This document shows positions 474 through 59,452 of a stretch of DNA of 64,000 bases, piece by piece. The notes beneath the pieces are model-generated. The model saw only the letters and a list, made by a program, of their open reading frames with translations. It was not told the DNA's origin and made no database searches. The translations under genes were made by a program, and so were the position numbers. Each line of letters begins with the position of its first letter. Position 1 is the stretch's first letter. This DNA is from Octopus vulgaris (Eukaryota), in NCBI GenBank assembly GCA_951406725.2, contig OX597819.1, positions 7,440,001 to 7,504,000 on the forward strand. Reading direction: 5' to 3'.

Positions 474-475
<2 letters not shown>

Positions 476-679
476 GGAGTAAACACATAAATGAGAAACA
501 AGGTGGAAAAAAGAGTACTCAAATACCAATGGTAGAGTAATATGCTTTATTTAAAGCAGCAGAAAATTCAACAAAACCTGTTACTCTGAGTTTTCTAGCA
601 AAAACTGTCCGATGAACGGCAACGGGAAACTCAGAGTAACAGGTTTTGTTGAATTTTCTGCTGCTTTAAATAAAGTATA
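474..679 (+). mobile_element. Penelope-derived fold-back element within (TA)n
   Basis: Inverted arms 541-593 / 627-679, hammerhead-like motif at 601-647, (TA)n on both sides. Confidence 0.7.
601..647 (+). ncRNA. minimal type I hammerhead-like motif (CCGA core variant)
   Basis: aaaactgt-CCGATGA-acggcaacgg-GAAA-ctcagag-TA-acaggtttt; stems I and III pair, stem II weak. Confidence 0.55.
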
Positions 680-741
680 TATATATTCAAAAATGAATTA
701 GAAGCAGTGCTAGTGTTGTAAACATTATTGACCACACATAC

Positions 742-1010
742 TCAATATATGCAATATATGTTCTCAGCTTGTTGGCCATAGGTCAGCATTTGGCATGGTG
801 GAGATGCCTTCCTCACAGCACCGGTAGTTAAATCACCTGAAAGTCATAAACAAGTGAAACATAAATGGTGAAACATCAATGTTCATCATTCCTGAATGGG
901 ATTTGGGATGAGCTATCTCACCTGTCTATGACTTTCAGGTGTTTTAAATCCTGGTGCTTCGAGGGAAACATCTCCACCATACCGGCAAATAAGCAAAACA
1001 CATACATTGA
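742..1010. repeat. imperfect fold-back (MITE-like hairpin)
   Basis: 792-857 is approximately the reverse complement of 918-983; weaker pairing extends outward. Confidence 0.7.
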
Positions 1011-1346
1011 TAATATATATATTTAATTCTTATTTCTAGCAATGTAGGTGCTACCCTGCACCGTCAATCACAATTAGTGATGATTGAATTTTTCCTCTTT
1101 GATTTTATATTGCGTATAGCTGTCTTCGTTATTTTATATATATATGCATACACACACACACAGAAGGATTGCCCAAAAGTAATGCAAAAGTGGGCATTTG
1201 TCATTAACTGACACAGGTTGTTTAAATAGCACGTGTTGGTAGAGTGACTTGTCTATACTCTCTGTAATTCTTTCTCTAAACTATTCAACATGAATCCAGC
1301 TCTCAAATTCTCTTTGAAAACATTTGGGTGCAGTTTCATGGTGGAT

Positions 1347-1758
1347 ACTCTTTACTCTTTTACTTGTTTCAGTCATTTGACTGCGGCCATGCTGGAGCAC
1401 CACCTTTAATCGAGCAACTCAACCCCGGGACTTATTTTTTTGTAAGCCCAGTACTTATTCTATCGGTCTCTTTTTACCGAACCGCTAAGTAACGGGGACA
1501 TAAACACACCAGCATCAGTTGTCAAGCAATGGTAGGGGGCCAAACACAGACACACAAACACACACACGCATATATATACATATATATATATATACGACAG
1601 GCTTCTTTCAGTTTCCGTCTACCAAATCCACTCATAAGGCTTTGGTCGGCCCAAGGCTATAGCAGAAGACACTTGCCCAAGATGCCACGCAGTGGGACTG
1701 AACCCTGAACCATGTGGTTGGTTAGCAAGCTACTTACCACACAGCCACTCCTGCACCT
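1347..1758 (-). mobile_element. tRNA-derived SINE family A
   Basis: Head GGYGCAGGAGTGGCTGTGTGGTAAG with A/B-box-like motifs, internal (TA)/(TG) tract, GTAAAAGA tail; more than 15 copies in window. Confidence 0.95.
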
Positions 1759-1984
1759 ATGTCAATTATTTTCAGATTCTTAGTCTATCTTTTTTCTCTA
1801 ATGGCTTCTCTATGCTTTTTAAGTGTCCCAGTGTTCCACTTGCTGTTCACAGTGAAGGCATTGTTGGAGAACATCAATGAGAGTAATACCCTTGTCATTC
1901 TGCAAAACAGTCATCAAGACTTCCTGGGCTCATCACTGGTTCTTGAACTTCTTAGGGTGCAGAGAAGAGGTGTGATGTATTGTC

Positions 1985-2352
1985 AACGCCGTTGCCGTGG
2001 AGATCTCATTCTTGCTCACAGCATCATAAGCGGAAAGTGTAACCTCTCAAAAGAGCTGTCCTTCACTCCTGCTCCAGAGCGTCGGCTGCGGGGTCATTCC
2101 AAAAAGCTCTATCTGCGACGATTTCATCTCAATCGAAGGAGAAGGGCTTTCTCCGTCCGGGTTGCGGATCCATGGAATAAACTGCTGGACGACATGGTGA
2201 AGATGCCGACGACCGCTTGGTTCAAAGTCTCCCTTGACCTCAAGTGGCCTGAACTTTTTACATGAACACCACCCTGTACATAACTCCATGTCCCCCTACA
2301 TGGCCTTGCTTTTTGCTTTTTGAGCCAAAAAATTAACTAACTAACTAACTAA
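1985..2352 (+). mobile_element. CR1-clade LINE 3' fragment
   Basis: RRCRGDLI..RLRGHSKKL..FSVRVADPWNKL C-terminus followed by (TAAC)n tail. Confidence 0.9.
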
Positions 2353-2441
2353 GTCTTCGTTTTCCAGACTGCAATGATTTGTCTACATTCTATATCCTAT
2401 CACCAGATCAGAAAATTTAAAAAAAGCATGTCTTCAATGGC

Positions 2442-2670
2442 TTAACCCTTTTGTTACTGTATATATTTTGAGATGCTCTGTGTTTCTCTCAATTACTTTA
2501 AATATAACAAAGAATTTAATAAAATAATTTCATTATCATTAAGCTGGTGTTAGGAACATAAATTGTGAATAAGATTTGGTGGAAGATTTTAATTCAGAAC
2601 TTTTGAAAACAAGACATTTATATTAAAGAGCCAGAGCTGGTTTCAGCCGGGTTGGTAACAAAAGGGTTAA
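2442..2670. mobile_element. TTAA-flanked piggyBac-like MITE, family 1
   Basis: TTAA-CCCTTT...AAAGGG-TTAA termini, ~228 bp, 8 copies in window. Confidence 0.9.
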
Positions 2671-3105
2671 ACTGCTTCCAGCAGATTGGTTCAGACTTCT
2701 ACTTCTAAAATAGTGTCAACTGTCAATGGACCCATTTTGCACAAACTTTCTCATATCCAAAGTCCTCTACTGTCTTCTGTAATGCATTGCAGTTACAGAC
2801 CAATTGTGCAGTAAATTTATGGAATATGATTTGTCTACCTGAATGAACCCATTCGTCCAGTCACACTTGATGCTTTCCTACAGCGTAGTTTGTCTTCAAC
2901 GCTGGTTTTCCTTTCTTTAAATTTCATCCATGTGTGCACACTAGTCTTGACAATAGTGTCCTCTCCATAAACAATCCATAACATTCAGTGAATGGCACCC
3001 TGCACTCATCTTTTGTTCACTCAATAACGACCAGTCACTTCTGCTTAGAACCCATTATTTGCCTGCAGTGAAGTAGAATAGGATGAATAGTTATTCTATT
3101 GATAT

Positions 3106-3506
3106 ACTCTTACTCTTTACAATTTTACTTGTTTCAGTCATTTGACTGCAGCCATGCTGGAGCACCGCCTTTAATCGAGCAAATCGACCCCAGGACTTAT
3201 TCTTTGTAAGTCCAGTACTTATTCTATCGGTCTCTTTTGACGAACCGCTAAGTGACGGGGACGTAAACACACCAGCATCGGTTGTCAAGCAATGCTAGGG
3301 GGACAAACACAGACACACAAACACACATATATATACATATATACGACGGGCTTCTTTCAGTTTCCGTCTACCAAATCCACTCACAAGGCTTTGGTCGGCC
3401 CGGGGCTATAGCAGAAGGCACTTGTCCAAGGTGCCACGCAGTGGGACTGAACCCGGAACCATGTGGTTGGTTAGCAAGCTACTTACCACACAGCCACTCC
3501 TGCGCC
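3106..3506 (-). mobile_element. SINE family A
   Basis: Near full-length match to other copies. Confidence 0.95.
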
Positions 3507-4369
3507 TTGTGTGCAATTTAACGAACTTTGTAGGTTAAAATAAAAAAATCATTTCCACTTTTGCATTACTTTGGCGCAACCTTCGAGTGTATTTACGCCC
3601 ACAAGCATACATAAATAGATGTACACATAAAGACGCGAAAAACACACACACACATGATAGAAAATTATAGTAATTATCAAAGCAAAAATTGCGCTTGTAA
3701 TTCATACTGTAAGAAGGGAAATAATTCACAAAGAACTTGCAGAATCACTTCCCCTGGTAACTGAAAGGAAATGACGAGCGAATACATCGATAAAAGTTGT
3801 ATTCACGTTCGATACTGGTAAAATGTGTCGCATAGAACAGGGTTTATTCTTAATGTTTTTGACAAAAGTTTGTATTTTAGAAGTTAGATAAGTGCCAATA
3901 CATGAAACTCTCAGCTTTTGACTTACTCTCTAACTTCTGCCGATGATATATATACATATATGTGTAAAAAATCTCATCATCCAATTGAACCAATGAAAGA
4001 GCCTCTACGTGGTCGCTCGACACACTAAAAATAGCAGCCAAAGTATCCCCCTACCTAAATCACAAACCCAAATATTCTTTATCATAATCAAAACACTGTA
4101 GCAAATTTAAAAGAGGATTATTGGTGGAAGATTTAATGATGGAAGAAATTTATCTTCATTTTGAAATGGAATTTCAACAAAAGTTTACATTCATCAAATA
4201 TGACACTGTTAGATGCATTAGATTGCATCAACATACTTGCAACATCTTTTATAAATGAAGTTTGCAGCTGCAGTACAACTCCTGGTTGCGGTAGACAAAC
4301 ACGACTAATGGTCCTCAACGATTAAAATTTTTGATTACTAAAACCACAAATTCACTTTCGAAAATCATG

Positions 4370-4980
4370 AAACATCTTCACTCAATACTGAACATGGAAT
4401 TTGCATCACTGGTCTGGAACCCCTATCTTGCCAAGGATATCAATCGTCTGGAAGCTGTTCAGCGACGTGCAACCAAAAGAATACCCTCCATCAGGCATTT
4501 GCCATATCCTGAACGCCTTACTTCCCTGGGCATGGACACATTGAAACTCCGACATCTGGCAGCTGATTTGGCAGACACCCATAAAATTATCAACCATTGT
4601 ACAAACAATAACTCTGAGCACCTTTTCAAACTCCACCCATCTAACACCCGTAAACATATTTACAAAGTCAGAAAACAGCACAACTCCCATGACTTTAGGA
4701 AACATTTTTTTCACGCTGAGAGTTGCTGAAGCATGGAACAAACTGCCGGCATCAGTTGTTAGTTGTCGGAGCACTGCATCCTTCAAGACTTCCATGCTTT
4801 CTGAGATTCGCCAACCCTACACCTGACTTTCTTCCCTCCATACACACACAGGCATGTATCTGACTCATACATTGTTCGCTTTCCAGACATTTTTACATTA
4901 CTGCATGTACTTTATACACACTTTCTGACAAGTTGTGGTGCACCTGAGCACTGTATACAATAATTTCATTATTATTATTT
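4370..4980 (+). mobile_element. CR1-clade LINE 3' fragment
   Basis: EFASLVWNPYLAKDINRLEAVQRRATK...RVAEAWNKLP, then (ATT)n tail. Confidence 0.92.
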
Positions 4981-5366
4981 TAACATGAAATTACTTCCAG
5001 AATTGAATTTCCTCCTGAATTTAAATATCTTGTTATTCAAATTCATAGATTTTTAATTAATCAAAATATTAATATGGAAGAAAGAATCAAATGTGATGTA
5101 ATGAACTTCAGTTCAAAAAAGCAGCAAATATTTGGCACAAATTTTACTCTAAAAGCTGCTGTTATTCATACAGGACCAACATCGAGAGCAGACCATTATA
5201 CCACACTCATTAAAACTGGAGGTGATATTTAGGATGAAATCAGTGACAACATCATTACAAAAAGACATACTAAATTTCCTCCCAAATTGCCTGACATTGT
5301 TTTATTATTTATGGAAAAAAATGTTAAAAAATTAAAAAACTAAATTCAGTGGAATTGTAACTAAAA

Positions 5367-5607
5367 ATGGCACGTTAAAAGCACCAAACGATCGTGGCCA
5401 ATGCCAGACCCCCCTGGCACCTGTGCAGGTGGCACGTAAAAAGCACCCACTGCACTCGCAGAGTGGTTGGCGTTAGGAAGGGCATCCAGCTGTAGAAACA
5501 CTGCCAGATCAGACTGGAGCCTGGTGCAGCACCTGGTTTCCCAGACCCCGGTCGAACCGTCCAACCTGTGCTAGCGCGGAAAAAGGACGTTAAACGATGA
5601 TGATGAT
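5367..5607 (+). mobile_element. RTE 3'-tail element
   Basis: Matches the 3' UTR of the RTE LINEs in this window; (GAT)n tail. Confidence 0.9.
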
Positions 5608-6942
5608 TGTATGATTGATCAATGATTATTTAGGAACAAAATTCACAAATAAAAAAACGAGAACATTTCCTTAAATTTGGAAATGGAAAATGGTTTTTAT
5701 GGTTTATAAAATGGTTTCATTATATGAAAAACCAAATATTTACAAAAAATTGAAGGTACAATAATAGTAATTTTTATTGCAAAATTAGGTTACTTAAGGT
5801 GAGCCTGGTAACTGATGGTTTTGATGTCTTGTTGTTTGTAACTTTTTGTGAGCCATGGTGCAACCAACAACATGGTAAAAATCCCTGCCATTAATTTGGT
5901 GTGGATGGGTAATATCAAATAATTCAGTCACAACATATATTTAAATCAAACATGAAAAAAATGAAATATTATCTTTCAGTATTTTATACGGTAAAATCAT
6001 AAATTATTAATCGACACATTATTAATTATCTTATAACAGCAATGCCTGGATAAATCATGGATTACATAGAAAAATGTGAGCATGAAAAGTAATATTCTTG
6101 AAACTATAAGCCTGGAAAAGTACAAGATTATAAACAAATGCCCGTTCTTCTAATTTATCACACTTTACAGTTCTCATGTTTTAAATTTATTGTACAAAAC
6201 TGTTCAGCTAATTTGTAAGTTTGTCTAATTAGTGACTATTTTTCTGTATTTAAGGTAGCAAATTAGCCGAATTCTACTTAAATAAGCACAGTGTTATTTG
6301 TAAACTATAATAATATAATTTTTGATATTCAAATTTTGATTTTAGCTACAATATTTTAAGTAAAAAGTTTCTTATTATTTACTTGAAGTAATAGTTTGAC
6401 CTATACTTTTACAGGTGTAATAACTTGTCTTGTACTTTTCCAGGTTTATAATCTTAAGAATATTACTTTTCATGCTTGCATTTTTCCATGTATTAAAATT
6501 ATTGTGTGTGTGTGTATGTATCACAAAATAAGAAAACTAAGAGATTAATTGCAGATGCCTAACAACAAAAACTTAAAATACAATACGAAGGGGAGTAACT
6601 CAGAGGAAAAACATTCTTCACTTATTTGATGAAAAGTAGACCAGCCTTCACCGTACTATATTTTAGCGCTATCTTGAACTACATTATTTAAAAAAGAAAC
6701 CAAGTGTGATTTGGATGCTATTTGAAGCATTGTTGCTTATTCAATCCTAAACTGGTAATTTTTATATCAATATTTCGATTCTTTCAATTGTTAATAATTT
6801 CCAAGGCGATTAAGAATTGTGAAAACAAAGTTATCAAAATGAAAATATCGAAGATATCAATTAAAATAGTTGTAATTAAATCCATGAAAACGACTTGATT
6901 ACCAATGTGTTCTAGTTTTGAGCTGTCTTTGTGAAACATAAA

Positions 6943-7341
6943 TCTTTATATATAAAAGTGAAGTTGTGTGTCTGTCTCCTACGATTTAGATTCCTAACTA
7001 CTCCCACATTTTGCGGTGCAGTTTAACCAAAACCGGGTATCTTATAGTCGTGATTCATATCGAGCCCTTCTGGGTATTAGCGCGCGTCTACGATGAGTCT
7101 ACGATTAAAAAAAAAAATTACCATAATATTTTTCCATTTTAATGCATTTTTGGCATATATAAGGGAAGTAACTCTCTAAAAATGTCTACGATGAGTCAAC
7201 GATTTAAAAAAAAAAATTACCATAATTTTTTTTTTCCATTTTTAATGCACTTTTTTGCTATTTTTTTGGCTATAACTCTCTAAAAATGGTTATATAGTTA
7301 TTTTCCTTACAAACCCGAGCAACGCCGGGCGATACTGCTAG
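6943..7341 (+). mobile_element. non-autonomous Helitron
   Basis: A|TC...CTAG|T termini with subterminal hairpin cccgagcaacgccggg; 4 copies. Confidence 0.88.
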
Positions 7342-7536
7342 TGTTCAATAAATATCTGGAAAAAAATTAGTTTGAAATATATTCAATGAGGAAAATTTGC
7401 CGCGCGCACGAGAGAGAATCAAAGAGGTATTCTAATTCTGTGCGTTCAAAAATACAAAAAATGCAATTAAAAAATATTCAGACTTGAAACCCACAATCTA
7501 ATGGCATCTAACACGATTTCAAATACAGTCAGTATA

Positions 7537-7707
7537 GGCGCAGGAGTGGCTGTGTGGTAAGTAGCTTGTTTACCAACCACATGGTTCCAGGTTCAGTCCC
7601 ACTGCGTGGCATCTTGGGCAAGTGTCTTCTACTATAGCCTCGGGTCAACCAAAACCTTGTGAGTGGAATTGGTAGACGGAAACTGAAAAGAAGCCTGTGT
7701 ATATATC

Positions 7708-7756
<49 letters not shown>

Positions 7757-7907
7757 TGTAGTGTGTGTTTGTCCCCCTAGCATTGCTTGACAACCAATGC
7801 TGGTGTGTTTATGTCCCCGTTACTTAGCGGTTCGGCAAAAGAGACCGATAGAATAAGTGCTGGGCTTACAAAAGAATAAGTCCCGGGGTCGAGTTGCTCG
7901 ATTAAAG
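7537..7907 (+). mobile_element. SINE family A, 3' truncated
   Basis: Head to core present, abuts a partial MITE. Confidence 0.9.
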
Positions 7908-8112
7908 CCAAAACCGGCTCTGGCTCTGTTGTACAAATGTCTTGTTTTCATAAGTTTTGAATTAAGATATTCCACCAAGCCTTAGTCACAATTAACGTTC
8001 CTAACACTAGCTTCATGATAATTAAGCTATTTTACTAAATTCTTTGTTATATTTTAAATAACTGAAAAAAACACAGAAGATCTCAAAATAAATACAGTAA
8101 TGAAAGGGTTAA
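7908..8112. mobile_element. TTAA MITE family 1, partial
   Basis: Family body and one terminus. Confidence 0.85.
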
Positions 8113-9052
8113 ATCCTCTGAAATTCACTGATGATATTGTAATCATTTCCAAGGGCATTACAGAATCAACAGCAATGCTCAAAGAATTCAAAGAAGAAAG
8201 CAAAAATTGTGGACTTAGAATTAATGTTAGTCAAATGAAGATAATCTCCAACCATCACAGCTGGAAATGTAGTAACAGATGATGAAATAGTTGAACATGT
8301 GAGACAATACACCTATCTTGGACAAACAATCTGCTTAACCCTTTCGATACCAACCCGGCTGAAACCGGCTCAGGGCTCTGAGTACAAATGTCTCGTTTTC
8401 ATAAGCTTTGAATTAAAATCTTCCACCAAACCTTAGTTACAATTTATGTTCCTAACACTAGCTGAATGATAACAAAGCTATTTTACTAAATTCTTTGTTA
8501 TATTTAAAGTAATTGAAAGAAACACAGAGCATCTCGAAATAAATGCAGTAATAAAAGGGTTAAAGGATAAAAATTAGACCAAAGAAGTTGAACAATGAAC
8601 GCAATTACAATGTGTATCCTTTGGTAAATTGAATCACATCATGAGCAATAACTTACCCATGTGTCTAAAAAGAAAGGTCCTCAACCAGTGTATGTTTCCT
8701 GCTATCATGTGGGCATCAGAAACATGGACTAACAAGAGCATTGGAAATAAATTAAGATCAACACCAAAGAGCCATGGAAAAGAGAAAGCTGACGATTAAT
8801 GAAGAAACAACTGGATAAGAGTTGCAATAGATTTAATGGATATTGGGGAATAAAAATCATGAAATGGTCCTTCACAGGATATTTAGGAAAATGGATGCTA
8901 GATAGAATAGCAAATTGACAGAGTGGATAGCTTATTCAGAAAAAAGGAGAAGACATCCAAACATGGATGAGGGAAACATCAGACCATGCTTGGTGGAGAG
9001 AACATATGAAGGCCTTCATCCAGCAGTGGACTGAACGTATGCAAGGGTGATG
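8113..9052 (+). mobile_element. old RTE-clade LINE 3' fossil
   Basis: LKFTDDIVII..KNCGLRIN, YTYLGQ, LKRKVLNQC..ASETWT; interrupted by MITE at 8335-8563. Confidence 0.8.
8335..8563. mobile_element. TTAA MITE family 1
   Basis: Both TTAA-CCCTTT termini. Confidence 0.9.
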
Positions 9053-9244
9053 TATATATGTGTGTATGTACTTGTGTATACAGTGCAGCACCTCTTTAGC
9101 TTAATCAATGTTATTAGCTAGGTTGATAGGTCAGTCGTACATTCTATATCACAACTTGGCTGTCATGCCCAACAAAGTGAGATTTGAATTAACTCCTAAT
9201 CCAATGTCTTCCTTTGACACAAGTTTCATCTACTGTTAGTGCAT

Positions 9245-9450
9245 ACTCTTTTACTTGTTTCAGTCATTTGACTGCGGCCATGCTGGAGCACCGCCTTTAG
9301 TCGACCAAATCGACCCCACCGGGACTTATTCTTTGTAAGCCCAGTACTTATTCTATGGGGTCTCTTTTGCCGAACTGCTAAGTGACGGGGACGTAAACAC
9401 ACCAGCATCAGTTGTCAAGCAATGCTAGGGGGACAAACACAGACACACAA

Positions 9451-9503
<53 letters not shown>

Positions 9504-9678
9504 TATATACATATATACGACAGGCTTCTTTCAGTTTCCGTGTACCAAATCCACTCACAAGGCATTGGTCGGCCCGGGGTTATAGCAGAAGACACTTGCC
9601 CAAGATGCCACGCAGTGGGACTGAACCCGGAACCGTGTGGTTGGTAATCAAGCTACTTACCACACAGCCACTCCTGCA
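9245..9678 (-). mobile_element. SINE family A
   Basis: Family match. Confidence 0.95.
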
Positions 9679-16966: not shown

Positions 16967-17317
16967 AGTGTCCATCACTGACGAGACCAAATAAGGTCAA
17001 AATCATGGGATCTGGTGGTCTTGTCACTGGAGGTAGCAAGGATTTATCTTGCTAGTGATATAAATAAAGAGTGCATTTTGCTCCAAAGAGCCAATATGAG
17101 AGTTTCTCTCAAGGTAACTACCACAGTATAGTTTGTTCTAATAGAACATCCATGTTTAAGTGGGGATAAATATTACAACATTATGAGTACATGACATTTG
17201 AACTAATGACTCTCTGGTCAGGTTTCCAGCTTTTCAACTCAAAGAACCTTAAAAATAATTAGGAATCTTGACGTGATAATAAATTATACAATCTTATTCA
17301 ATTCCTTTTATATCTAA

Positions 17318-25401: not shown

Positions 25402-25972
25402 TATCTATACAATATGTTACATTACTCGGTAGTCAAGATAAAACTCTGAGTTTCAGATGCCGAAGTGGAAATCCACAACACCATCTCTTCGGAGCAGGTC
25501 CGCTTCGAAATCTTCCAAGCCTTTAATCCTAGGAGGGAATTTTTTGGATTTTATCCGATAGCAAATGTTTTCCTTGGTGTTCGCTTGTTTTTGGTCCCCT
25601 AAAGAAAACGGATAGAACATGCTTTCTGTGTTATGTCCCAAGAAGATTTTATATATTTTTATATATTTTTATATATTTTTTTATGTATTTTTATATAATT
25701 TTTATGACGAAAAATGCGAGCGATGTATAAGTACGCAGGCAAAGCAGAGTTATAACAGAGTAATTTCCCTTCATTTTTAACGGTATTTTTTCATAACGTT
25801 TTCAAATAGCCAGATAACCGAAGAGATGGTGTTGTGGATTTCCACTTCGGCATCTGAAACTCAGAGTTTTATCTTGACTACCGAGTAATGTAACATATTG
25901 TATAGATAAATTTCCTCTATTTACATAATATTGAGGTCTCTTTCTTTCTTTTGTTATCTTACCGTTTTATCA
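25402..25972. mobile_element. Penelope-like element remnant with inverted pLTR
   Basis: Perfect 91-bp inverted arms 25402-25492 / 25818-25908; minus-strand IKSKKFPPRIKGLEDFEADLL resembles the Penelope ORF N-terminal region; (TA)n flanks. Confidence 0.8.
25812..25874 (+). ncRNA. type I hammerhead-like motif (CCGA core variant)
   Basis: agataa-CCGAAGA-gatg..catct-GAAA-ctcagag-TT-ttatct. Confidence 0.55.
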
Positions 25973-26079
25973 ATATATATATATATATATATATATTTCT
26001 CCTACAAAAATTTTACTTCGTCATTAGTAAAAAGAGACAAGTATTGATTGATTCTCTTGTCTCTCGTTGTGTGTTTATA

Positions 26080-44110: not shown

Positions 44111-44117
44111 TAATCCG

Positions 44118-46304: not shown

Positions 46305-46869
46305 TTTTATAATTTCATTAATACCATATAGTGTTTTAGTCTCTTTTGTTTTATATGCTTGGATTTGAAATGTTAATAATTTAATGTAGTTGCTGTTGAG
46401 GCCATGAAACGGAAAGGGTTAACCAACTGACAATAGAGATTTACATATAGGTAATAGCCGTTATTAGACTTGATAGCTTTTAAAGGTCATTCAAAGTATG
46501 CCAAGAAAATTACTCATTACATCGTAGACATTGTAATAAACTTCTTGTGGTCAAATATGTTTCACTTGTGTAGTAGTCATTACAAATTTGTAATTTCAAG
46601 TACTTAATCATACAATAAAACTTTAAAGAGGAGCACTCATCTTTCTTTGTGACTAAACTCAAGATTCTTTGATGAGACTTTATAATAAATTGATATGATT
46701 GTCAGGAAATACGTCTTCTTTCCATTACTTATATTTTAATGCAATAGAAACATGTATAAGTGTAATTTAAATGTTTTATTTATAGAAAGAGGAAATATTC
46801 AGTTTACAATTACACAGGTCTTTTTAACTCTTTTGTGATGACATTTTTAGTGAAATACACTGTATATAT

Positions 46870-47253
46870 CAGAAATACTAAATTTCTAAATCTCTCGTAG
46901 AGACATGTACGGTGGTGGGGCGATAGAATGGTTGTATACTGTCATTCTAACACAAACGTAACAGTAGGGGGTACACCACCGCTGTTTAGCCCTAGGAAGC
47001 ATTGACGCCTCCTGATGGCTTTGACACATTTTTCCTGTGTCCTTATATACATTTACGAAGGGGAGACAAACACTCCCAGCCGCCCAGGGCTGCATCTAGG
47101 GACACGTGTTTCAGGATGATTGTCCTTCGTCGGTATATAATGACACAGGAAAAATGTGTCAAAGCCATCAGGAGTCGTCGATGCTTCCTAGGGCTAAACA
47201 GTGGTGGTGTACCCCCTACTGTCACGTTCGTGTTAGATTGACAGTATACAACC
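46870..47253. mobile_element. Penelope-derived fold-back element
   Basis: ~130-bp inverted arms 46929-47061 / 47124-47254; 13-bp TSD acactgtatatat at 46857 and 47254; hammerhead core on - strand. Confidence 0.75.
47101..47140 (-). ncRNA. hammerhead core lacking local stem I
   Basis: CCGACGA-agga-caatca-tcct-GAAA-cacgtg-TC with palindromic stem III. Confidence 0.5.
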
Positions 47254-47277
47254 ACACTGTATATATTTTTCAATTAA

Positions 47278-50191: not shown

Positions 50192-50410
50192 ACTCTTTTA
50201 CTCTTTTATTTGTTTCAGTCATTTGACTGCGGCCATGCTGGAGCACCGCCTTTAATCGAGCAACTCGACCCTGGGACTTATTCTTTGTAAGCCCAGTACT
50301 TATTCTATCGGTCTCTTTTGCCGAACCGCTAAGTAATGGGGACATAAACACACCAGCATCGATTATCAAGCAATGCTAGGGGGATAAACACAGACACACA
50401 AACACACACA

Positions 50411-50441
<31 letters not shown>

Positions 50442-50535
50442 GACGGGATTCTTTCAGTTTTCGTCTACCAAATCCACTCACAAGGCTTTGGTCAGCCTGA
50501 GGCTATAGTAGAAGACACTTGCCCAAGGTGCCAAG
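50192..50535 (-). mobile_element. SINE family A lacking head
   Basis: Family match. Confidence 0.9.
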
Positions 50536-51075
50536 ATGTTAAAAATCTTTCAGAATTGTAACAAATTTTATAATGGTTACTATTTATAACTTTTCTAATT
50601 GTAAATCTTTCAGTGGTTAATCGAAGTCCTGGAAGGGGAATAAAATTTACAAAGAAAGGGACAAAGAAAGTTTTAAATCATATGACCTAAAATGTTCATG
50701 CAGGCATAGAAAATAGATGTTGAATGATGAGAATGATGATGATGATTTGTCTCCTGCATCAATTTACTGGTTGTACACTAAATATGTAATGTTGATTTCA
50801 TAAGAGGTTTACTGAAAGTGAGACACTTATATTTTTCTCTGATGATATCAGTGTCACTAGTAAGTAAATTAAAATCCTGAGCTGGTGACTGGAGAAGGAG
50901 GAGGAGGCTGTCCCCTGAGCCAGCATGCTGCTATATGATGTACTCTGGTGGTGATGTTATTCCACATTTTCTGATCTCATTGCTGCTTGAATGACTCCTT
51001 GCGCTCATTCAACTACAGTGGAGGGCAATGATCAAAGTCTTTCCTGCCTTAAAACTACACTATATTTTTGTGCGT

Positions 51076-51459
51076 GGAGGCGCAATGGCCCAGTGGTTAG
51101 GGCAGCGGACTCGCGGTCATAGGATCACGGTTTCGATTCCCAGACCAGGCGTTGTGAGTGTTTATTGAGCGAAAACACCTAAAAAGCTCCACGAGGCTCC
51201 GGCAGGGGATGGTGGTGATCCCTGCTGTACTCTTTCACCACAACTTTCTCTCACTCTTACTTCCTGTTTCTGTTGTACCTGTATTTCAAAGGGCCGGCCT
51301 TGTCACTCTCTGTGTCACGCTAAATATCCCTGAGAACTACGTTAAGGGTACATGTGTCTGTGGAGTGCTCAGCCACTTACACGTTAATTTCACAAGCAGG
51401 CTGTTCCGTTGATTCGGATCAACCGGAACCCTCGTTGTCGTAACCGACGGAGTGCTTCC
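51076..51459 (+). mobile_element. SINE family B
   Basis: Full length. Confidence 0.93.
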
Positions 51460-52620
51460 ACCACATATTTTTGTACATCAGTAACTATATTACATTGGAT
51501 TATTTAAAATACAGAAGGCAGCAAGCTGGCAGAATCTTTAGCATGCTGGACACAATGCTTAGTGGAATTTTTTCCATAAATATCGGTTGAGCACTGGGGT
51601 TGATGCAATTGGCAACACCCACTCTCCAAAATTTCAGGCCTTGTGCCTATTGTAGAAAGGATTATTTAATACAGAGGATGTGATGTGAAGGGGATTTGGT
51701 TGCTATTTCTAACAGATGGAGCAATGCAGGCTCTCTCCCCCATTAAGCCTACATCTTGCTTTTTGGTGGGTCTTAAAAGTATCATTGATAACTACATTTT
51801 CTAAAATGTTTATTGTATCTCTAACTCTTCCCTACTGTACTAACTAAGATAAAAACATCAAGACATCTTTGCTGAATCATGTACACACTCAGAAACTCTT
51901 AATTGCACTTCCTCTTGTAGCTTCAGTGGTCTGATGAAAATTTCTGAAATTTTCTCTATATTTTGATACACTTATTTTTCTTTTTCCTCAGTGTTGTATG
52001 ACTCATTTCAGTTTCCTCTTTTTTTTTGGGGGGGGGTTTTACTTTTCCTTGTCTCTCTGATATCAACAAGTTCTGTATATTTTACCTAAAATGGTTTCAT
52101 AAAAAGGTTTTAAATAAAACTCCCTAGATAACAGGAATTGGGAAAGTTATAAAACCTAGACTTGTTGATTTCTGTTGTGTTCTCTGAGGAGACAGCTTTG
52201 ATCTTATATGTTTATTTTATTCCAGAATAAGTTTGAATTTCTAACTTGTATACACATTTATAGTTGTATTTCTTCTCTTGTTGCAAAGCTGAAGGAGTCA
52301 AATTTCTCATCTCTATCTAGATCATGCCAAATGATGACTCAGGAATTCTTTGAAACAGGGCTGGGTAGCTGGCTTCTTGACCTATCTATCCTACTACTGT
52401 TCCCTAGTTGCTGCTTAAAAAAAAAAGTAGGTTGAAGCAAAGGGAAAAATACTCTTTCCCATAACAAAAAAAAAACAAAAAAAAAATTTAGAATGGTTTT
52501 TGCAGTCAGTGAAATCTTCTTCCCCAAATTGAGGATGCATACATTCACACCCTCTTTTTTTTTTCTCCCCTGAAGAAGTTTGCATATATCTTCATGGAAA
52601 CTTCTGTATGTAAGCTTGCT

Positions 52621-52621
<1 letters not shown>

Positions 52622-52667
<46 letters not shown>

Positions 52668-52688
52668 TATCTCTCTCTCTCTCTCTCT

Positions 52689-52737
<49 letters not shown>
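52622..52737. repeat. compound (TA)n-(TC)n-(TA)n microsatellite
   Basis: Seen directly. Confidence 0.95.
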
Positions 52738-53214
52738 GATATGCTGGTGGGGATGCATATAAAAAGTCTGAATCTCCCTACCATCTATTTAAATATGAAA
52801 GAAAACAAACCTAAAGGAATAAATTTCTCTAAATATTATGGTAGTATTACATGACAAAAAATCCTTATTCCCTTTGGAGATAGACTTGTTTTGTTTCATA
52901 GTTGGCAATGGCTTCAGCATTAACTTGTTAATTATGTTGTTCCATACAAAAAGGGAAATGTGTTGTAAGGATTTTAGTAGGATGCAGAGATGTGCATCCA
53001 AGATAGGCTGCTTACTCATTTATGCATTATAGCTAGCTATTTTCTACACTTTTAATAAATTTAGTATGGTGTTGTACCAACAAGAGATCCTCTTCTGTAG
53101 TAGTGATTCCTAAAGGTTTTTCCATGTAGCGCATATAAAACTATTTTAGTGTAAATCGTGCATGAAGTAAACCAATGAATTGGAAAGAATATATTTTAGC
53201 CTGTTAACAAGTGC

Positions 53215-53440
53215 ATTTAACGTCTGTTTTCCATGCTGGCATGGGTTGGATGGTTTGACAGAGAACTGGCAAGTCGGGGAGTTGCACCAGGTTCCAATCT
53301 GATTAGGTATGGTTTTTTATGGCTGGATGCTTTTCCTAATGCCAGTCACTCCAAGAGTGTAGTGATTGCTTTTTACATGTTACCAGCATGGGTGCCAGTT
53401 GCATGTTACCAGCATCAACCACGACTATGATTTCCCTTGT
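53215..53440 (-). mobile_element. old RTE 3'-tail element
   Basis: Diverged family match. Confidence 0.75.
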
Positions 53441-54364
53441 TCTGATATGACTTAAAGTTTAGCCATAATTGGTTTTTCAAACAGTTGTAAAACTTTAAAG
53501 TATCAGTAATCTGTTTGTGAATCATTGCTCTTACATGATCATGTTACCTGCTAGAAACAACAACCAAATCTCTCTCAAATAACACCTTAATATCTTAAAA
53601 TAGGAAGGACATATTCGAATATTGTAGTTTTATGTGCACTTTTTTAATAGAATACAAAATAGTAGAGAAAAGTATTTGACCATAGATAGGTCTGTACAAT
53701 TGAGTCTGATCTGTCATTCTGTCATTTAATATTTGATTTGAAGATCATTTAGTGTCACTATTGATTTTCTTTTCATCTGAACACAAGAATATTTTAGAGA
53801 ATGAGTACAGTTGATATAACTGATCCCAATGTTTGCCAGTATTTTACTGAGCCTCTAGGGGAAGAAAGCATAGTTAGAGCCTTAAATAGTGTACTGCATT
53901 TAGCCTGGTTTTCCACTATTTCTGTAAAACTTACTACCCTATTTAGCATTACTCTTAAAGGGTTGAAGTTTTTTTCTGTCCCGTGTGTCTCATACACAAG
54001 GCATATATGTCCCTGGCATCCGTGCATCATATATGATACATATTCTTAGCTTTTTTTCAACCACCAAAGTATCTTGTGATTTATGAAAGAAAAACTTTAT
54101 ATTACTCAAAATGTATGAAACAAGGGCTAACTAAAAACCTGAAAACAAGTATAAATGTTTAGGACAAACTTGTGAGAATGCTTTTGACAGGCAAAGGGTT
54201 AACCCCATGTTGCTCTTGATCCAAAAAGCTGACATTAGGCTAAACAAGAAAAATAATTTATGGTCAAGAGTATTCCAGTTGTAGCTTTCTATTTTTATTG
54301 TTTAAGCATAGAACACCCAGTGTTACATTATCCAGTGTTCTTTTTTAAGATGGTTTGGTGAGGT

Positions 54365-54593
54365 TTAACCCTTTCGTTACCGTATTTATTTTGAGATGCT
54401 CTGTGTTTCATTCAATTAATTTTAATTATAATAAGGAATTTAGTAAAGAACTTAGTTATCATTAAGCTAGAGTTGGGAACATAAATTGTGATTAAGGTTT
54501 GGTGGAAGATTCTAATTCAATACTTATGAAAGTAAGACATTTGTACTACAGAGCCAGAGGCGGTTTTGGCCGGGTTGGTATCAAAAGGGTTAA
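54365..54593. mobile_element. TTAA MITE family 1
   Basis: Both termini. Confidence 0.9.
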
Positions 54594-54717
54594 TGGAGAT
54601 TTGGTCGCAATTTCTAGCAAGTCAAGTGACCATGGTGAGGCTCTTTCAATGGCTCAAGTGGTGGGTAATTGATTGTAATAGGAAGAATAACTGTATAGAC
54701 TAATGATTATAATTAAT

Positions 54718-55201
54718 TCGAAATTGAACCAATCCTATGACTGGCACCCGGCAGATGCCAGGACCCCTGGACTGGAGATACGTAAAAAGCACTATCTGAA
54801 TCGTGGCCGATGCCAGCGCCGCCTCGACTGGCCTCCGTGTCGCTGGCACGTAAAATGCACCAATCTGACCGTGGCCGATGCCAGCCTCGCCTGGCACCAG
54901 TGCAGGTGGCACATAAAATGCACCAATCCGACCGTGGCCGATGCCAGCCTCGCCTGGCACCAGTGCAGGTGGCACGTAAAATGCACCAATCCGATCGTGG
55001 CCAATGCCAGCCTCGCCTGGCACCAGTGCCAGTGGCACGTAAAAAGCACCCACTACACTCACGGAGTGGTTGGCGTTAGGAAGGGCATCCAGCTGTAGAA
55101 ACATTGCCAGATAAGACCGGAGCCTGGTGCAGCCTTCTGGCTTCCCAGATCCCCGGTCGAACCGTCCAACCCATGCTAGCATGGAGAACGGACGTTAAAC
55201 G
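54718..55201 (+). mobile_element. RTE 3'-tail element with 63-bp repeats
   Basis: 15-bp TSD atgattataattaat at 54703 and 55202. Confidence 0.93.
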
Positions 55202-56021
55202 ATGATTATAATTAATATTTGGTGTAGGACCCCAAGATGGAATCAAGGTAAGTGTGCATTAACAATGGAATGTAGGATGACAAAGTTGATGAAATACATT
55301 TTGTTGCTCATGATGACTGTTTTCTCTCTGAATATGGTTTGCCCTGTGTACATGATGGCATGAGTCAACCACTCCTAAATATGATTGCTCACTTTCCTTT
55401 CCTACTGTGCTTAGCAAATCTTAATTATATCCTTTAATGTTAAAGTAATTATTCTCATTACTGAAGTGTTGTGAGATATTAATTCATTTGTCGATTTGGT
55501 GGTTGTGTTTGAGTAATTGTGCTTCAGTGAATGTTTTATTTATTTATTTATTTATTTCTAGCAGTGTGTCTGGATGTAACTAGGTATGTGAATCGGTATT
55601 GACAGTGTTTGTATGCTGAAGTGGGAGCCAGCCTGCTTAAAACTTAGAAAGCCTTAGAAGTTGAATCAATTAAAAGTCTGCTTGTAATGAAAAGAAAGGG
55701 ACATTGACATTAGTGATAATTTTTGTTAAGAAAGACAAGAAAAACAACTCTGAATTCCTAATTGATTAAAAGTTGAATAGGGAGATGCAGCAAGTTCTGT
55801 ATCTGTGCTCAGCAAACAATTATGAAATAATCAAGAATACTCAAGTTTATATGAGTAATAAACAGCTATGTTTATAATACTAATAATATTTTGTTTCACT
55901 TTCCATCTTAGGGTCAGCTTTGCTTGTCATTCACAATCAGTAGAATTACAAAATAAGCTAACTCACTATAACTTTCATTTTACAAAAAGAAAAGGGCTTT
56001 GCTACAAAGTAACTGCTCATA

Positions 56022-56427
56022 TCTCTTTTACTCTTTTACTTCTTTCAGTCATTTGACTGCGGCCATGCTGGAGCACTGCCTTTAGTCGAGCAAATTGACC
56101 CCGGGACTTATTCTTTGTAAGCCCAGTACTTATTCTATCGGTCTCTTTTGCCGAACCGCTAAGTGACGAGGACGTAAACACACCAGCATCGGTTGTCAAG
56201 CAATGCTAGGGGAACAAACACAGACACACAAACACATACATATATATATATATACATATATACGACAGGCTTCTTTCAGTTTCCGTCTACCAAATCCACT
56301 CACAAGGCTTTGGTCAGCCCGAAGCTATAGCAGAAGGCACTTGTCCAAGGTGCCACGCAGTGGGACTGAAACTGGAACCATGTGATTGGTAAGCAAGCTA
56401 CTTACCACACAGCAACTCCTATGCCTA
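56022..56427 (-). mobile_element. SINE family A
   Basis: Family match. Confidence 0.93.
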
Positions 56428-57016
56428 CATGTCTATTTTATCACACTGGCATGGATTAGATATTGGATAAATGTAAGACATGCTGTCTGCAGTAATAGGT
56501 GGGTTGTTTCTGACTGCAGTGTTTTTGTATAGAGCAGTATTTGGATTTGAACATCAACAAGAAACCTATAATGATGCCACCTGCCAAGAATGGCATTGTT
56601 TTCTTTCTCTTACTATTAACATCATTGGTGTCAGAAACTCTCATGCCATCTCTTCAGTTAATTCCTTAATTAATGTTTTGTTAATTGTTTCCAGCTTTAC
56701 GGGTTATCTAATTATTGTTTCAAGAAATAGGAACCTTCAATTAAACTTTAGTTTGCACTTGTTACATCCCCCCTTTTAATCTGTTATAGGTTTAAGTGGT
56801 TCAATTTTATTATTTTTCATTATTTATTCGTGTAGACAATGTTTAAAATTGTTCAACTTTGGAATGTTGACAATTTTCTATAGTTTCTCTTTTCATTTTG
56901 GTTTTTAAGATTTCTGCCTCAGGCACACAATGCCGTGTGATGGTCATGCCTTCTCCAAAGACATTAATAAAATTCGAATGATAATTGGGCCACAGTTTAC
57001 TAGCAGGAAATTGCCA

Positions 57017-57446
57017 TTAACCCTTTAGCATTCAGATTATTCTGTCAAATGTAATGCTTATTTATTTGCATTGCTCTGAATTAACTGTGCATTTACCTTG
57101 TAGCTTTGAGATTTTCATGATATGATTGCTTATTTTTAGAAGGACATTGTAGGGTAGGTGTGGAAGGCTGCATCTAGCTAGTTTGAACATAAAACAGTAA
57201 AAATATTTAGGCCAGACATGGCTGGTTTAGCATTTAATCTGGCCATATCTGGCCCAAATATTCTACATGTTTTATGTTAAAACTGGCCAAATCCAACCTC
57301 TTAGACCTATACTAATATATCATTCTAGAATTATAAAAACATACCATTGAAATCTTGAAGCTGTAAGATAATGCATGAGAAATTCAAATCAATGTAAATA
57401 AATAAGCAAACATTTGACAAAAGAAATCTGAGTGCGAAAGGGTTAA
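57017..57446. mobile_element. inverted dimer of TTAA MITE family 2
   Basis: Two opposed copies fused at ~57225-57235 with outer TTAA ends. Confidence 0.85.
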
Positions 57447-57491
57447 ATCATTTATTACTTTTCTACACATTGATGAATGTATTTATTTTAA

Positions 57492-57862
57492 GTGGCACAT
57501 AAAAAGCAACATTCGAACGTGGCCGATGCCAGCGCCACCTCGACTGGCTCCAGTGCCAGTGGCACATAAAAAGCACCATCCGAACGTGGCCGATGCCAGC
57601 GCCGCCTTGGCTGGCTTCCGTGCCGGTGGCACGTTAAAAGCACCAACCGATTGTGGCCGATGCCGGACTCCCCTGGCACCTGTGCAGGTGGCACGTAAAA
57701 AGCACCCACTACACTCATGGAGTGGTTGGCGTTAGGAAGGGCATCCAGCTGTAGAAACTCTGCCAGATCAGACTGGAACCTGGTGCAGCCCCTGGCTTCC
57801 CAGACCCCTGTCGAACCGTCCAGCCCATGCTAGCGCGGAAAACGGACATTAAACGATGATGA
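57492..57862 (+). mobile_element. RTE 3'-tail element
   Basis: Family match. Confidence 0.9.
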
Positions 57863-58104
57863 TAAGCACCGAGGGACACTTAACAAAAGTACCCCGCATG
57901 GTATACGTTTTGTGTGTTCATGTATATTCTGTGCCATGGTTCTAATTTCCAATTGGGATAAACTCATTTGTGCCAATGGCTTTAGGAGAAACAAGTCTCA
58001 ACTTCTCACTTCCACACTTGTCATAAAAATCTTGATTTGTGTCAAGAAGAGATGATGCTCTTATGACAATGCCTGAATTTAAATGGAAAATTTATGTGTA
58101 AGCA

Positions 58105-58450
58105 CGTTTAAATATTTGTCATGCAAGATTTTTTATGTGAAGTCGTGTGTTGAAACAGATATTGTTATATTTCGGAATGGTCATTTTGCCAGTTTAGCCA
58201 ATAAAAACACACGCGCTATATATTTGGTGTTATTTTGCTTCAGTGTTATATATTTTTTACATTAATCTTAATCTTATTTCGGAAAGGACCACTGATGTGG
58301 TCACAGGAGTGTGACAAAAGAACTCTGGCCGAAATAAGATTAAGATTAATGTAAAAAATAAATAACACTGAAGCAAAGTAACACCAAATATATAGTGTGT
58401 GTGTTTTTATTGGCTAAACTGGCAAAATGACCATTCCGAAATATAACAAA
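58105..58450. mobile_element. fold-back element, probably Penelope-derived
   Basis: 121-bp inverted arms 58162-58282 / 58329-58449; 13-bp TSD ttatgtgtaagca at 58092 and 58451. Confidence 0.75.
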
Positions 58451-59452
58451 TTATGTGTAAGCATTTTTGTATAAAAGTTTCATTTTCTTAAAATCCAGAG
58501 TTACACTAAAGTCAAGATTTCAGATGAAGGTTTAGTAGCACTACCTTGGCCGAGTGTGAGGTTTGTGGTAGCAGAAAACCTTCACATAAGATGCTGTTCT
58601 ATAGTTAACAAATAGATACCAAATCCTGTTATAATAAATACTTCAAGCAGGAAGTTTGTATTGGAAACAACCACCAAATCTCACTTATATTATATTCTAC
58701 TGTCTTAAAAAAATACATATTGCATAGTATAATCCAGGATACACTATTCCAGGGATGGGGCAGGAAGGTGAGATTAGAATGTCTTAGGTAGTTTGCCTGG
58801 TCTGAGATTAACCCTGTTTCACAATACCATATAACTATGTGAAGTGCAATGTGTGTTAGTGTACATATACTGAGAGAAAAACTGGTTTATTGTCTCTGTA
58901 GGTTTGTGTTAACTAACTGGAAAAAAAATAATAAATAAATGAGCAACTACAAAACACACCTAAAGATATTTATTTTTGCCTGTTTCACTGTTTGAAATAA
59001 TATTTCTTCATTTTAGTTGCCAAATAACAAATGGAATCTTTATTATTTATATTAAAGCTTTGTCCTCAATTAATGCTAATGCTTTTGGGAAGGACTAATA
59101 ATTTTAACATATTTTTTTGCTCTAATTCTAAAACTTTATGGCTAATTAAGTATAAAGTGGTGGGTTTCATTGCTTCTGATGTTTCATCATCCAAAAACTA
59201 CAGTAGTATTACATAGAGCACATAAATCCTTATTTATGGATTCATTTATTACTGATTCAAGGTAACATATTACTCTGAATTGTGAAACATGTTACACATA
59301 TCACAGATTGATCTGTGATAACATGAGTCAGTAATCAGTCAAACATTCCCACTTGTACCTCAAAAGCATGCCTCAGTGACTATCCACAATACTCAACTAT
59401 CCAGAATGCACTGGCTGTTGCTTGTGTTTACATCACCAGGCTGCAAGTCTGC

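What the first reader, a model, noticed from the sequence alone, without database searches (positions are those of the whole stretch)
474..58463. Recurring architecture: short fold-back retroelements built around hammerhead-like motifs, with a shared CCGA core variant
Seen: four elements with unrelated arm sequences (474-679, 25402-25972, 46870-47253, 58105-58450) each have inverted arms of about 50-130 bp whose inner breakpoint falls in or beside a hammerhead-like core. Three read CCGANGA rather than CUGANGA and have a near-palindromic stem III (actcagagt twice, acacgtgt). Two have 13-bp TSDs and two sit in (TA)n. Established: Penelope-like elements carry minimal type I hammerheads with palindromic stem III in their pLTRs and often have inverted partial pLTRs. 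Inference: these could be a mobile non-autonomous, retrozyme-like system with a fixed U4C variant, in which the antisense arm either switches off the ribozyme or forms dsRNA.
Basis: partly seen in the sequence, partly recalled or inferred. Interest (0 to 1): 0.72.

Follow-up and report, generated by a model that had tools for sequence, protein, structure and literature searches.

The report
Penelope stubs with U4C hammerheads
The four fold-backs are broken-off ends of Penelope-type jumping genes and of one short repeat that likely rides on them, each joined head to head at its own breakpoint, a layout already in print; the unusual part is that about half of some 20,000 matching hammerhead (predicted self-cutting RNA) motifs in this genome carry C at a core position that is U in relatives, and whether they still cut is untested.

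Summary
The arms, cores and TSDs are real, with corrections. The four are not one mobile fold-back unit. Elements 1 and 2 are 5'-truncated head-to-head insertions of two Hydra-clade Penelope-like elements (PLEs) that have intact ORFs elsewhere in the genome (3.37 and 2.59 kb units). Element 4 belongs to a third PLE whose core is CUGA but degenerate. Element 3 is a piece of a 360-nt tandem repeat with retrozyme features. Junctions vary (31 and 28 classes); outer ends are fixed, one with a tail. This layout is published. U4C is real: 10,937 of 20,464 genome-wide motif matches, near-fixed in families 2 and 3, a 35% subfamily in family 1, and at chance level in 78 Hydra-type loci from metagenomes. 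I found it in print only for a viroid; one key paper was unavailable. Breakpoints pile up at or just upstream of the hammerhead in families 1 and 2 (8- and 14-fold), not at the predicted cut, and not in family 3. This likely marks the 5' end of an uncleaved transcript. Cleavage, circles and small RNAs are untested. Earlier unreviewed scan notes report U4C Hydra stubs elsewhere in this genome.

The parts
474..593 (-). Element 1, tailed arm: 3' end of family 1 (F1, Hydra-clade PLE), from about +18 of the core (C3 = 0) through the pLTR end (+67) to the tail end (+138)
   Evidence: 95% to the F1 unit of L153; end positions
593..680 (+). Element 1, tail-less arm: F1 from about -14/-16 to the pLTR end, followed by (TA)n
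605..642 (+). Minimal type I hammerhead motif, core CCGAUGA (U4C), 4-bp stem I, 2-bp stem II, near-palindromic stem III; predicted cut after 638
   Evidence: same layout as Hydra-2_aMil in PMC8557442 File S2
25402..25492 (-). Element 2, tail-less arm: family 2 (F2, Hydra-clade PLE) from the core (0) to the pLTR end (+90)
   Evidence: 100% to the F2 unit of L162
25486..25586 (-). Element 2, fragment of the F2 ORF (residues 46-78) joined to the arm above
   Evidence: 98% DNA; tblastn 94%
25587..25978 (+). Element 2, tailed arm: last bases of the F2 ORF, 3' UTR, pLTR and tail (-229 to +160), followed by (TA)n
   Evidence: 99% to the F2 unit
25812..25874 (+). Type I hammerhead motif, core CCGAAGA (U4C), 6-bp stem I, extended stem II, near-palindromic stem III; predicted cut after 25868
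46857..46869 (.). Left 13-bp target-site duplication of element 3 (right copy 47254-47266)
46870..47133 (-). Element 3, tailed arm: family 3 (F3, 360-nt retrozyme-like repeat) from the core (0) to +264
   Evidence: 95% to the F3 unit of L163
47095..47133 (-). Truncated hammerhead motif, core CCGACGA (U4C), 4-bp stem II, palindromic stem III; the 5' strand of stem I is missing in this copy
47133..47253 (+). Element 3, tail-less arm: F3 from about +83 to about +205
   Evidence: 96% to the F3 unit
58092..58104 (.). Left 13-bp target-site duplication of element 4 (right copy 58451-58463)
58105..58282 (-). Element 4, tailed arm of family 4 (F4, PLE with a C-terminal GIY-YIG-type region), starting about +37 of the core
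   Evidence: 97% to L164
58283..58450 (+). Element 4, tail-less arm, starting 9 nt upstream of the core
   Evidence: 98% to L164
58286..58330 (+). Degenerate hammerhead-like motif: U4, but U at position 9, A at position 12 and a 3-bp stem I

Best explanation
The four fold-backs are separate, 5'-truncated, head-to-head insertions from three protein-coding Penelope-like families and one 360-nt repeat that is likely copied by the same machinery, and each fold-back was likely made at the moment of insertion rather than copied as a unit. Shown: parents, fixed outer ends, one tail per pair, variable inner junctions, U4C frequencies. Inferred mechanism: the RT-endonuclease nicks both strands of an AT-rich target and primes two cDNAs at two internal sites 54-71 nt apart (the tail is the interval), likely on the same uncleaved RNA. 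Both cDNAs run towards the RNA's 5' end and are joined there by microhomology. In F1 and F2 the transcript likely begins 10-30 nt upstream of the hammerhead core, so priming in the upstream pLTR gives 70-170-nt arms that end beside the core. F3 has a tandem or circular template with no fixed 5' end and shows no such pile-up. U4C likely arose in source copies and was amplified; the ribozyme is likely weak or protein-gated and not needed for insertion. Confidence: identity about 0.9, two-primer run-off mechanism about 0.5.
For: Parents: open frames of 717 aa (F2) and 727 aa (F1) in tandem units of 2,589 and 3,365 nt, with the Hydra motifs RWK, DKT, CxCX5C, CxxC and CxH; model pLDDT 88.8, best fold match telomerase RT, E 8e-10. 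F4: 6 of 30 loci match an RT/GIY-YIG-type ORF. Junctions: 31 classes among 65 abutted arms of 100 (F1), 28 among 42 of 75 (F2); exactly one tail in 29 of 31 and 28 of 28 classes. The commonest F1 junction (-14/-14, a CTAG palindrome) occurs in both a C4 and a U4 copy. 5' ends in -30..+30: 69 of 100 (F1) and 28 of 75 (F2), against 10 and 4 in -200..-31; per-base hazard ratios 8 and 14. Tailed and tail-less arms stop at the same coordinate (medians -3.5/-2.5 and -9.5/-10.5) although their lengths differ by about 70 nt; mixed short/long pairs are 0 of 29 and 1 of 28. Ends exactly at the predicted cut: 0 of 100, 1 of 75, 0 of 30. F3 5' ends spread from -124 to +156. Published: inverted truncated copy, tail, TSD and palindromic junctions (PMC3846280, PMC8557442); both-strand priming, two internal start sites and cleavage-independent insertion in vitro (PMC11167929).
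Against: No transcription start was mapped; the RNA data were contigs only. Samples come from the first matches on one contig and from exact patterns, so they favour young copies. Older C4 copies of F1 diverge from my U4 reference upstream, which can shorten BLAST extents for the 35 of 100 arms with no abutting partner. Short A/T microhomologies blur ends by a few bases. No parent was found for F3, and none of the C4 loci of F1 showed its own ORF, so that subfamily's autonomy is open. A 3' splice-site-like AG lies about 10 nt upstream of the core in F1 and F2 (read from the sequences) and could also shape the pile-up. Covariation in 19 F2-lineage motifs is modest: 4 pairs with changes on both sides, reached by 6 of 500 shuffles, which ignore relatedness.
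Confidence: 0.75

Rival explanations
1. The fold-backs are mobile non-autonomous units: a short hairpin RNA with an antisense arm is itself copied, and the arm gates the U4C ribozyme or makes dsRNA.
For: At least 37 of 40 scored places match nearly the whole of element 1. A few junctions recur: -14/-14 and -16/-14 in three or four F1 insertions each, and L002, L004 and L010 are nearly alike by eye. All four copies are predicted to fold into long hairpins.
Against: 31 and 28 junction classes; spacers run from tens of bases to over 3 kb; the recurrent junction sits on a palindrome and appears in both subfamilies; element 2 holds ORF fragments.
Confidence: 0.05
2. The second arm is made by snap-back: one cDNA folds on itself, or an antisense transcript self-primes (proposed in PMC3846280), and the folded hammerhead stalls the RT.
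For: The two 5' ends are coupled (Spearman 0.44 and 0.73); junctions favour palindromes; the pile-up overlaps the structured motif.
Against: In 13 of 29 and 11 of 28 pairs the tailed arm is more than 5 nt shorter at its 5' end than the tail-less arm, which snap-back from one sense-templated cDNA cannot give. F3 has the best-formed hammerhead and no pile-up there. An antisense template is not excluded.
Confidence: 0.25
3. The U4C motifs are inactive relics: cleavage is dispensable, so position 4 drifts by transitions in source copies and is amplified neutrally.
For: Position 4 differs between subfamilies in both lineages: C in the more diverged and U in the less diverged, ORF-bearing F1 group (33 of 33 and 25 of 25 linked); U in diverged F2 relatives and C in young F2. 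The young F1 group has lost the first stem II pair. F4 lacks A9. No copy class begins at the cut.
Against: The other core bases and stem III stay invariant across F2-lineage variants while stems vary; F3 keeps a 6-bp stem I, a 4-bp stem II and a palindromic stem III. U4C keeps enough activity for viroid infectivity (PMC3088659 citing Ambros and Flores). This reading is compatible with the best explanation; it differs only on activity.
Confidence: 0.4

Closest known systems
Hydra-clade Penelope-like elements (Craig et al. 2021, PMC8557442; includes Hydra-1_Obim from an octopus)
   Same: F1 and F2: single ORF of about 710 aa with RWK, DKT, CxCX5C, CxxC and CxH; (TA)n targets; 3' hammerhead with actc-N-gagt stem III (Penelope-3_HM has actc-a-gagt; Hydra-2_aMil has F1's ctgt/acag stem I); inverted truncated copies.
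   Different: All 26 Hydra rows of File S2 have a ctga core (their descriptor required it); F2 and part of F1 have ccga. The F1 unit is 3.37 kb, longer than the usual <3 kb.
Insertion units of endonuclease-positive PLEs (Arkhipova et al. 2013, PMC3846280; Frangieh et al. 2024, PMC11167929)
   Same: Head-to-head inverted pLTRs, tail on one arm, TSD, palindromic junctions, AT-rich targets, two internal RT start sites.
   Different: Tails here are 54-71 nt rather than 30-40. A pile-up of both arms' 5' ends just upstream of the hammerhead was not in the passages I read.
Non-LTR retrozymes (Cervera and de la Pena 2020, PMC7229834; Li et al. preprint 10.64898/2026.07.22.740005)
   Same: F3: 360-366-nt head-to-tail unit, type I hammerhead with 6-bp stem I and 4-bp stem II, highly self-paired fold, no ORF of its own, PLE-type ends.
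   Different: U4C core; mostly monomers and short tandems with inverted arms; some copies carry a 1.75-kb ORF1-like insert; circular RNA and cleavage not shown.
U4C hammerhead variant of a viroid (Ambros and Flores 1998, as summarised in PMC3088659)
   Same: Same core change; reported as much slower in vitro yet sufficient in vivo.
   Different: One natural viroid variant, against about 11,000 genomic matches in at least three repeat families here.

Membership tests
Hydra-clade PLE (F1, F2; elements 1 and 2) | Single ORF with telomerase-like RT and a C-terminal endonuclease region | tested here: met
   Open frames of 727 and 717 aa; fold search ranks telomerase RT first. Pfam gave no hit; the endonuclease region is assigned by motif only.
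Hydra-clade PLE (F1, F2; elements 1 and 2) | RWK, DKT, CxCX5C linker, CxxC and CxH around the conserved E and N | tested here: met
   Read in the translations against the definition; some F1 copies have a changed linker cysteine.
Hydra-clade PLE (F1, F2; elements 1 and 2) | Tandem or partial-tandem pLTR structure, inverted truncated copy, tail, (TA)n target | tested here: met
Hydra-clade PLE (F1, F2; elements 1 and 2) | Placement in the Hydra clade on an RT tree | not tested
   No tree was built; similarity to Hydra-1_Obim was judged by eye from the supplement passage.
Hydra-clade PLE (F1, F2; elements 1 and 2) | Canonical CUGANGA hammerhead in the pLTR | tested here: inconclusive
   Motif present; U4 in the ORF-bearing F1 group, C4 in F2 and in 35% of F1 matches.
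Endonuclease-positive PLE, clade open (F4; element 4) | RT ORF followed by a cysteine linker and GIY-YIG-type domain, then pLTR and tail | tested here: met
   611-aa open stretch with weak RVT_1 (E 7e-4), CX4CxxC and a GIY-YIG-type continuation read by eye; 6 of 30 loci. No intact full ORF was fetched.
Non-LTR retrozyme (F3; element 3) | 170-400-nt head-to-tail unit without ORF | tested here: met
   31 of 50 hammerhead copies are preceded by the unit's own 3' end, 4 by the ORF1-like insert; spacings of 363-366 nt; no PLE ORF continuous with the unit in the loci tested.
Non-LTR retrozyme (F3; element 3) | Canonical type I hammerhead | tested here: inconclusive
   Helix sizes canonical, core U4C in 65 of 66 and 97 of 100 listed matches.
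Non-LTR retrozyme (F3; element 3) | Highly self-paired monomer | tested here: met
   One unit folded: -118 kcal/mol, z -4.68.
Non-LTR retrozyme (F3; element 3) | Self-cleavage and abundant circular RNA | not testable with these tools
   Only contigs of runs guessed to be RNA were available.
   31 and 28 junction classes; no class above four insertions.

The most novel reading that the evidence does not exclude
This genome holds a ribozyme-retroelement system built on a U4C hammerhead that works: F3 is a circular 360-nt retrozyme with an active U4C core, copied by Hydra-type PLE proteins and able to carry a 1.75-kb zinc-knuckle ORF as cargo, while U4C was favoured more than once (F1, F2, F3 and at least two further families) as a slowed or protein-gated switch that keeps the template uncut until both arms are copied.
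Probability: 0.2. Interest if true: 0.72.

Novelty: new variant of a known kind. Interest (0 to 1): 0.42.

Why it matters
The fold-back layout is ordinary for PLEs. Two things are useful. First, about 11,000 U4C motifs, including in a young family with an intact ORF and in a retrozyme-like repeat, would be missed by CUGANGA descriptors, and sister subfamilies with U4 and C4 give a natural pair for asking whether PLE hammerheads need to cut. Second, the junction census (both arms ending at one coordinate whatever their length, almost no mixed pairs, no ends at the cut) makes a testable prediction about how PLE inverted insertions form, which is still open.

Tried and rejected
Rfam scan: no hammerhead match at the four elements. 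DNA search with element 2 returned no candidates, an artefact of the common-word filter; patterns worked instead. Pfam found nothing in the F1 and F2 proteins; PDB sequence search gave nothing relevant; 1,037 homologues carried no names in the 120 rows shown. Sequencing runs: no RNA holder listed on record; contigs of guessed RNA runs cover parts of F3 and F2 but cannot show starts, circles, strand or small RNAs, and no splice joint appeared. One script's output was swamped by (TA)n matches and repeated with masking. A TSD survey of F3 and F4 loci was mostly uninformative because of (TA)n flanks. CpG decay copy by copy as the source of U4 in F1 was rejected: U4 is fully linked to two other bases. 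A rearranged-order hammerhead for F4 was considered by eye and gave no better pairing. Lunse et al. 2017 and Ambros and Flores 1998 were not held, so U4C in PLE hammerheads may be described there. Five DNA-family or motif look-ups in earlier scan notes: three found nothing.
Full report
Setting. The window is G000:C6:7,440,001-7,504,000 in a 2.8-Gb genome of 227 contigs. I take the host to be octopus-like from recalled repeat motifs and from by-eye similarity of the F2 protein to published Hydra-1_Obim; this was not verified. Positions below are relative to C3 of the hammerhead core (C3 = 0).

Observation. The four inverted-arm pairs, three CCGA cores, two 13-bp TSDs and two (TA)n contexts are in the sequence. 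Rfam does not see these motifs. Element 2's long arm starts at -229 and its spacer holds ORF pieces, 98-100% identical to an intact element. Element 3's core has lost the 5' strand of stem I. Element 4's core is U4 but lacks A9 and G12.

Parents. Exact patterns found 4,493 matches for the F1 core and 2,272 for the F2 core, with 0 for the reversed controls. Fetching 15 stretches chosen for close match pairs showed tandem units of 3,365 nt (F1) and 2,589 nt (F2) with open frames of 727 and 717 aa. Both carry RWK, DKT, CxCX5C, CxxC and CxH, the Hydra-clade marks of PMC8557442 (section 11 read). An AlphaFold model of the F2 protein (40 sequences, pLDDT 88.8) matches telomerase RT best. F4 follows an RT ORF with a CX4CxxC linker and a GIY-YIG-type region in 6 of 30 loci; its clade is open. 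F3 is different: 31 of 50 distinct hammerhead copies are preceded by the unit's own 3' end, 4 by an unrelated ORF1-like insert and 15 are truncated too close to tell. A 3' pattern has 1,904 matches, with neighbours 363-366 nt apart, and one 360-nt unit folds with z -4.68. That is the layout of non-LTR retrozymes (PMC7229834, passages; preprint 10.64898/2026.07.22.740005, abstract and first part of Results).

Is the fold-back a mobile unit? The 30 best whole-length matches of element 1 share both outer ends, but their inner junctions mostly differ by eye. To avoid selecting on the junction I anchored on 3' patterns (8,202 matches for F1, 1,835 for F2) and analysed arms from the first 100 listed matches on contig C1, fetching 76 more stretches. 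This gave 100 F1 arms and 75 F2 arms. 65 and 42 of them abut an opposite arm, in 31 and 28 junction classes; exactly one arm is tailed in 29 of 31 and 28 of 28 classes. No class holds more than four insertions, and the commonest (-14/-14, on a CTAG palindrome) occurs in both a C4 and a U4 copy within one locus. Spacers reach several kb. So the fold-back is remade at each insertion. Head-to-head inverted pLTRs with one tail, a TSD and palindromic junctions are described in PMC3846280 and PMC8557442 (passages), and opposite-strand minimal hammerhead pairs 100-700 bp apart in PMC4209133 (parts 1-2 of 4 read).

Do breakpoints favour the hammerhead? In F1 and F2, yes. 69 of 100 and 28 of 75 5' ends fall in -30..+30, against 10 and 4 in the next 170 nt upstream; hazard ratios are 8 and 14. 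The stop depends on position, not length: tailed and tail-less arms end at the same median coordinate although they differ by about 70 nt. Among one-tail junction classes (2 F1 classes left out), mixed short/long pairs are 0 of 29 and 1 of 28. Ends do not sit at the predicted cut (+30, +51, +33): 0 of 100, 1 of 75 and 0 of 30. In F3 the 30 sampled 5' ends run from -124 to +156 with 3 within 6 nt of the core, so element 3's break at C3 is probably incidental. Summed contig depth in one likely DNA run also rises about fourfold near -19 in F2, a weak check because such depth is not copy number.

Mechanism. PMC11167929 (parts 1-2 of 4 read) shows for a lizard PLE that both target strands are cut and extended, that RT starts at two internal sites whose interval is the tail, that the hammerhead cuts only with protein, and that dead hammerheads do not impair insertion. 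I infer two cDNAs primed from the two target ends on one uncleaved RNA, running to its 5' end and joined by microhomology. A transcript starting 10-30 nt upstream of the core in the upstream pLTR explains the short class, and PLE promoters lie in the pLTR (PMC2377424, passages). An initiator-like CCATTCT spans -19..-13 in F1 (read; consensus recalled). Snap-back from a single cDNA fits the coupling but not the 13 of 29 and 11 of 28 pairs in which the tailed arm is the shorter at its 5' end. Priming on antisense RNA (PMC3846280) is not excluded. None of these steps was observed.

U4C. Genome-wide, 10,937 of 20,464 matches to a Hydra-type motif pattern have C4 (controls 10 and 98). F2: 100 of 100 listed, including the ORF-intact copies. 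F3: 65 of 66 and 97 of 100 listed of 541. F1: 1,556 of 4,493. F4: 0 of 30. In 69 F1 arms, position 4 is linked to other bases (33 of 33 C, 25 of 25 U; 11 arms in smaller groups), and the U4 group is less diverged and holds the intact ORFs. Diverged F2 relatives have U4. At least two further CCGA families appear in the listing. Outside this genome, 63 of 78 Hydra-type metagenome loci gave motifs under a scan with position 4 free: 54 CUGA, 2 of the U3-A8 type, 1 CCGA and 3 others, with about 2 chance motifs per shuffle. All 26 Hydra rows of File S2 of PMC8557442 are ctga, and actc-N-gagt stems are already there. So the palindromic stem III is known and U4C is lineage-specific. Searches for U4C and related terms found only PMC3088659 (section 8 and passages read), which cites a viroid variant that is slower in vitro but infectious. 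Lunse et al. 2017, on PLE hammerhead variants, was not held, and one supplement of PMC4209133 could not be searched; either may bear on novelty. Structure support is modest: in 19 F2-lineage motifs chosen as distinct and not truncated (4 of 23 left out), 92% of cells pair and 4 pairs change on both sides. Stem III dimers are predicted at -7.4 (F1, F2) and -10.3 kcal/mol (F3), and unfavourable for F4.

State of the four copies. All are predicted to zip into long hairpins if transcribed across. Element 3 and element 4 lack core parts. Elements 1 and 2 keep a full motif whose stem III and 3' strand of stem I are sequestered by the antisense arm. I found no evidence that this is a selected switch.

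Earlier notes. Unreviewed notes from this scan report U4C cores and fold-back stubs of Hydra-type elements on other pieces of this genome. They agree with a reading I had reached before looking and are not independent support. Other papers seen as passages only: PMC13282606, PMC6765202, PMC6155905.

Verdict. Known architecture, known clade, one retrozyme-like family, and a core variant that I could not find described in retroelements. New variant of a known kind; interest 0.42.

Noticed in passing
L243:1530-7359; L465-L494 (outside the window): A roughly 1.75-kb element with one 410-480-aa ORF (weak zinc knuckle) and an AATAAA end sits inside the F3 unit 18 nt upstream of the core, between direct repeats of about 16 nt. 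16 of the 30 best protein matches have F3 flanks, several with inverted F3 arms, on many contigs; others lie at different targets, often in tandem. It looks like an ORF1-only L1/Tx1-type element (label recalled; one neighbour runs into an APE-like start) carried as cargo by F3. One paper search found no such case.
   Followed up: partly
L151-L152 (G000:C1:57,207,500-57,224,000): A head-to-head array of F2 with four units on one strand and two on the other, period about 2,580 nt, several with intact 717-aa frames: a candidate source locus.
   Followed up: partly
L440, L454, L463, L438: Further hammerhead families with Hydra-type stem III: two with CCGAAGA cores and short stem II, one with a CUGA core and long stem II; L438 and L440 are also head-to-head pairs.
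   Followed up: no
window 16972-17018 (+): Weak Rfam Hammerhead_1 match (22.2 bits, gathering 34): CUGACGA core and 4-bp stem II but A in place of G12; possibly a decayed hammerhead or chance.
   Followed up: partly
window 62887-63853: The longest inverted repeat of the window is two opposite copies of a common SINE-like repeat, with no hammerhead-like core.
   Followed up: partly
window 792-983, 6063-6492, 57093-57371: Three more imperfect inverted repeats without hammerhead-like cores; probably MITE-like or decayed elements.
   Followed up: no
L153 and L162, about 10 nt upstream of the core: A pyrimidine run followed by TAG precedes stem I in both F1 and F2, like the intron end at helix I of Drosophila virilis Penelope (PMC4209133); no splice joint was seen in contigs for F2.
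   Followed up: partly
L244, L194, L220: ORF fragments 27-36% identical to the F1 and F2 proteins show further, older Hydra-type families in this genome.
   Followed up: no
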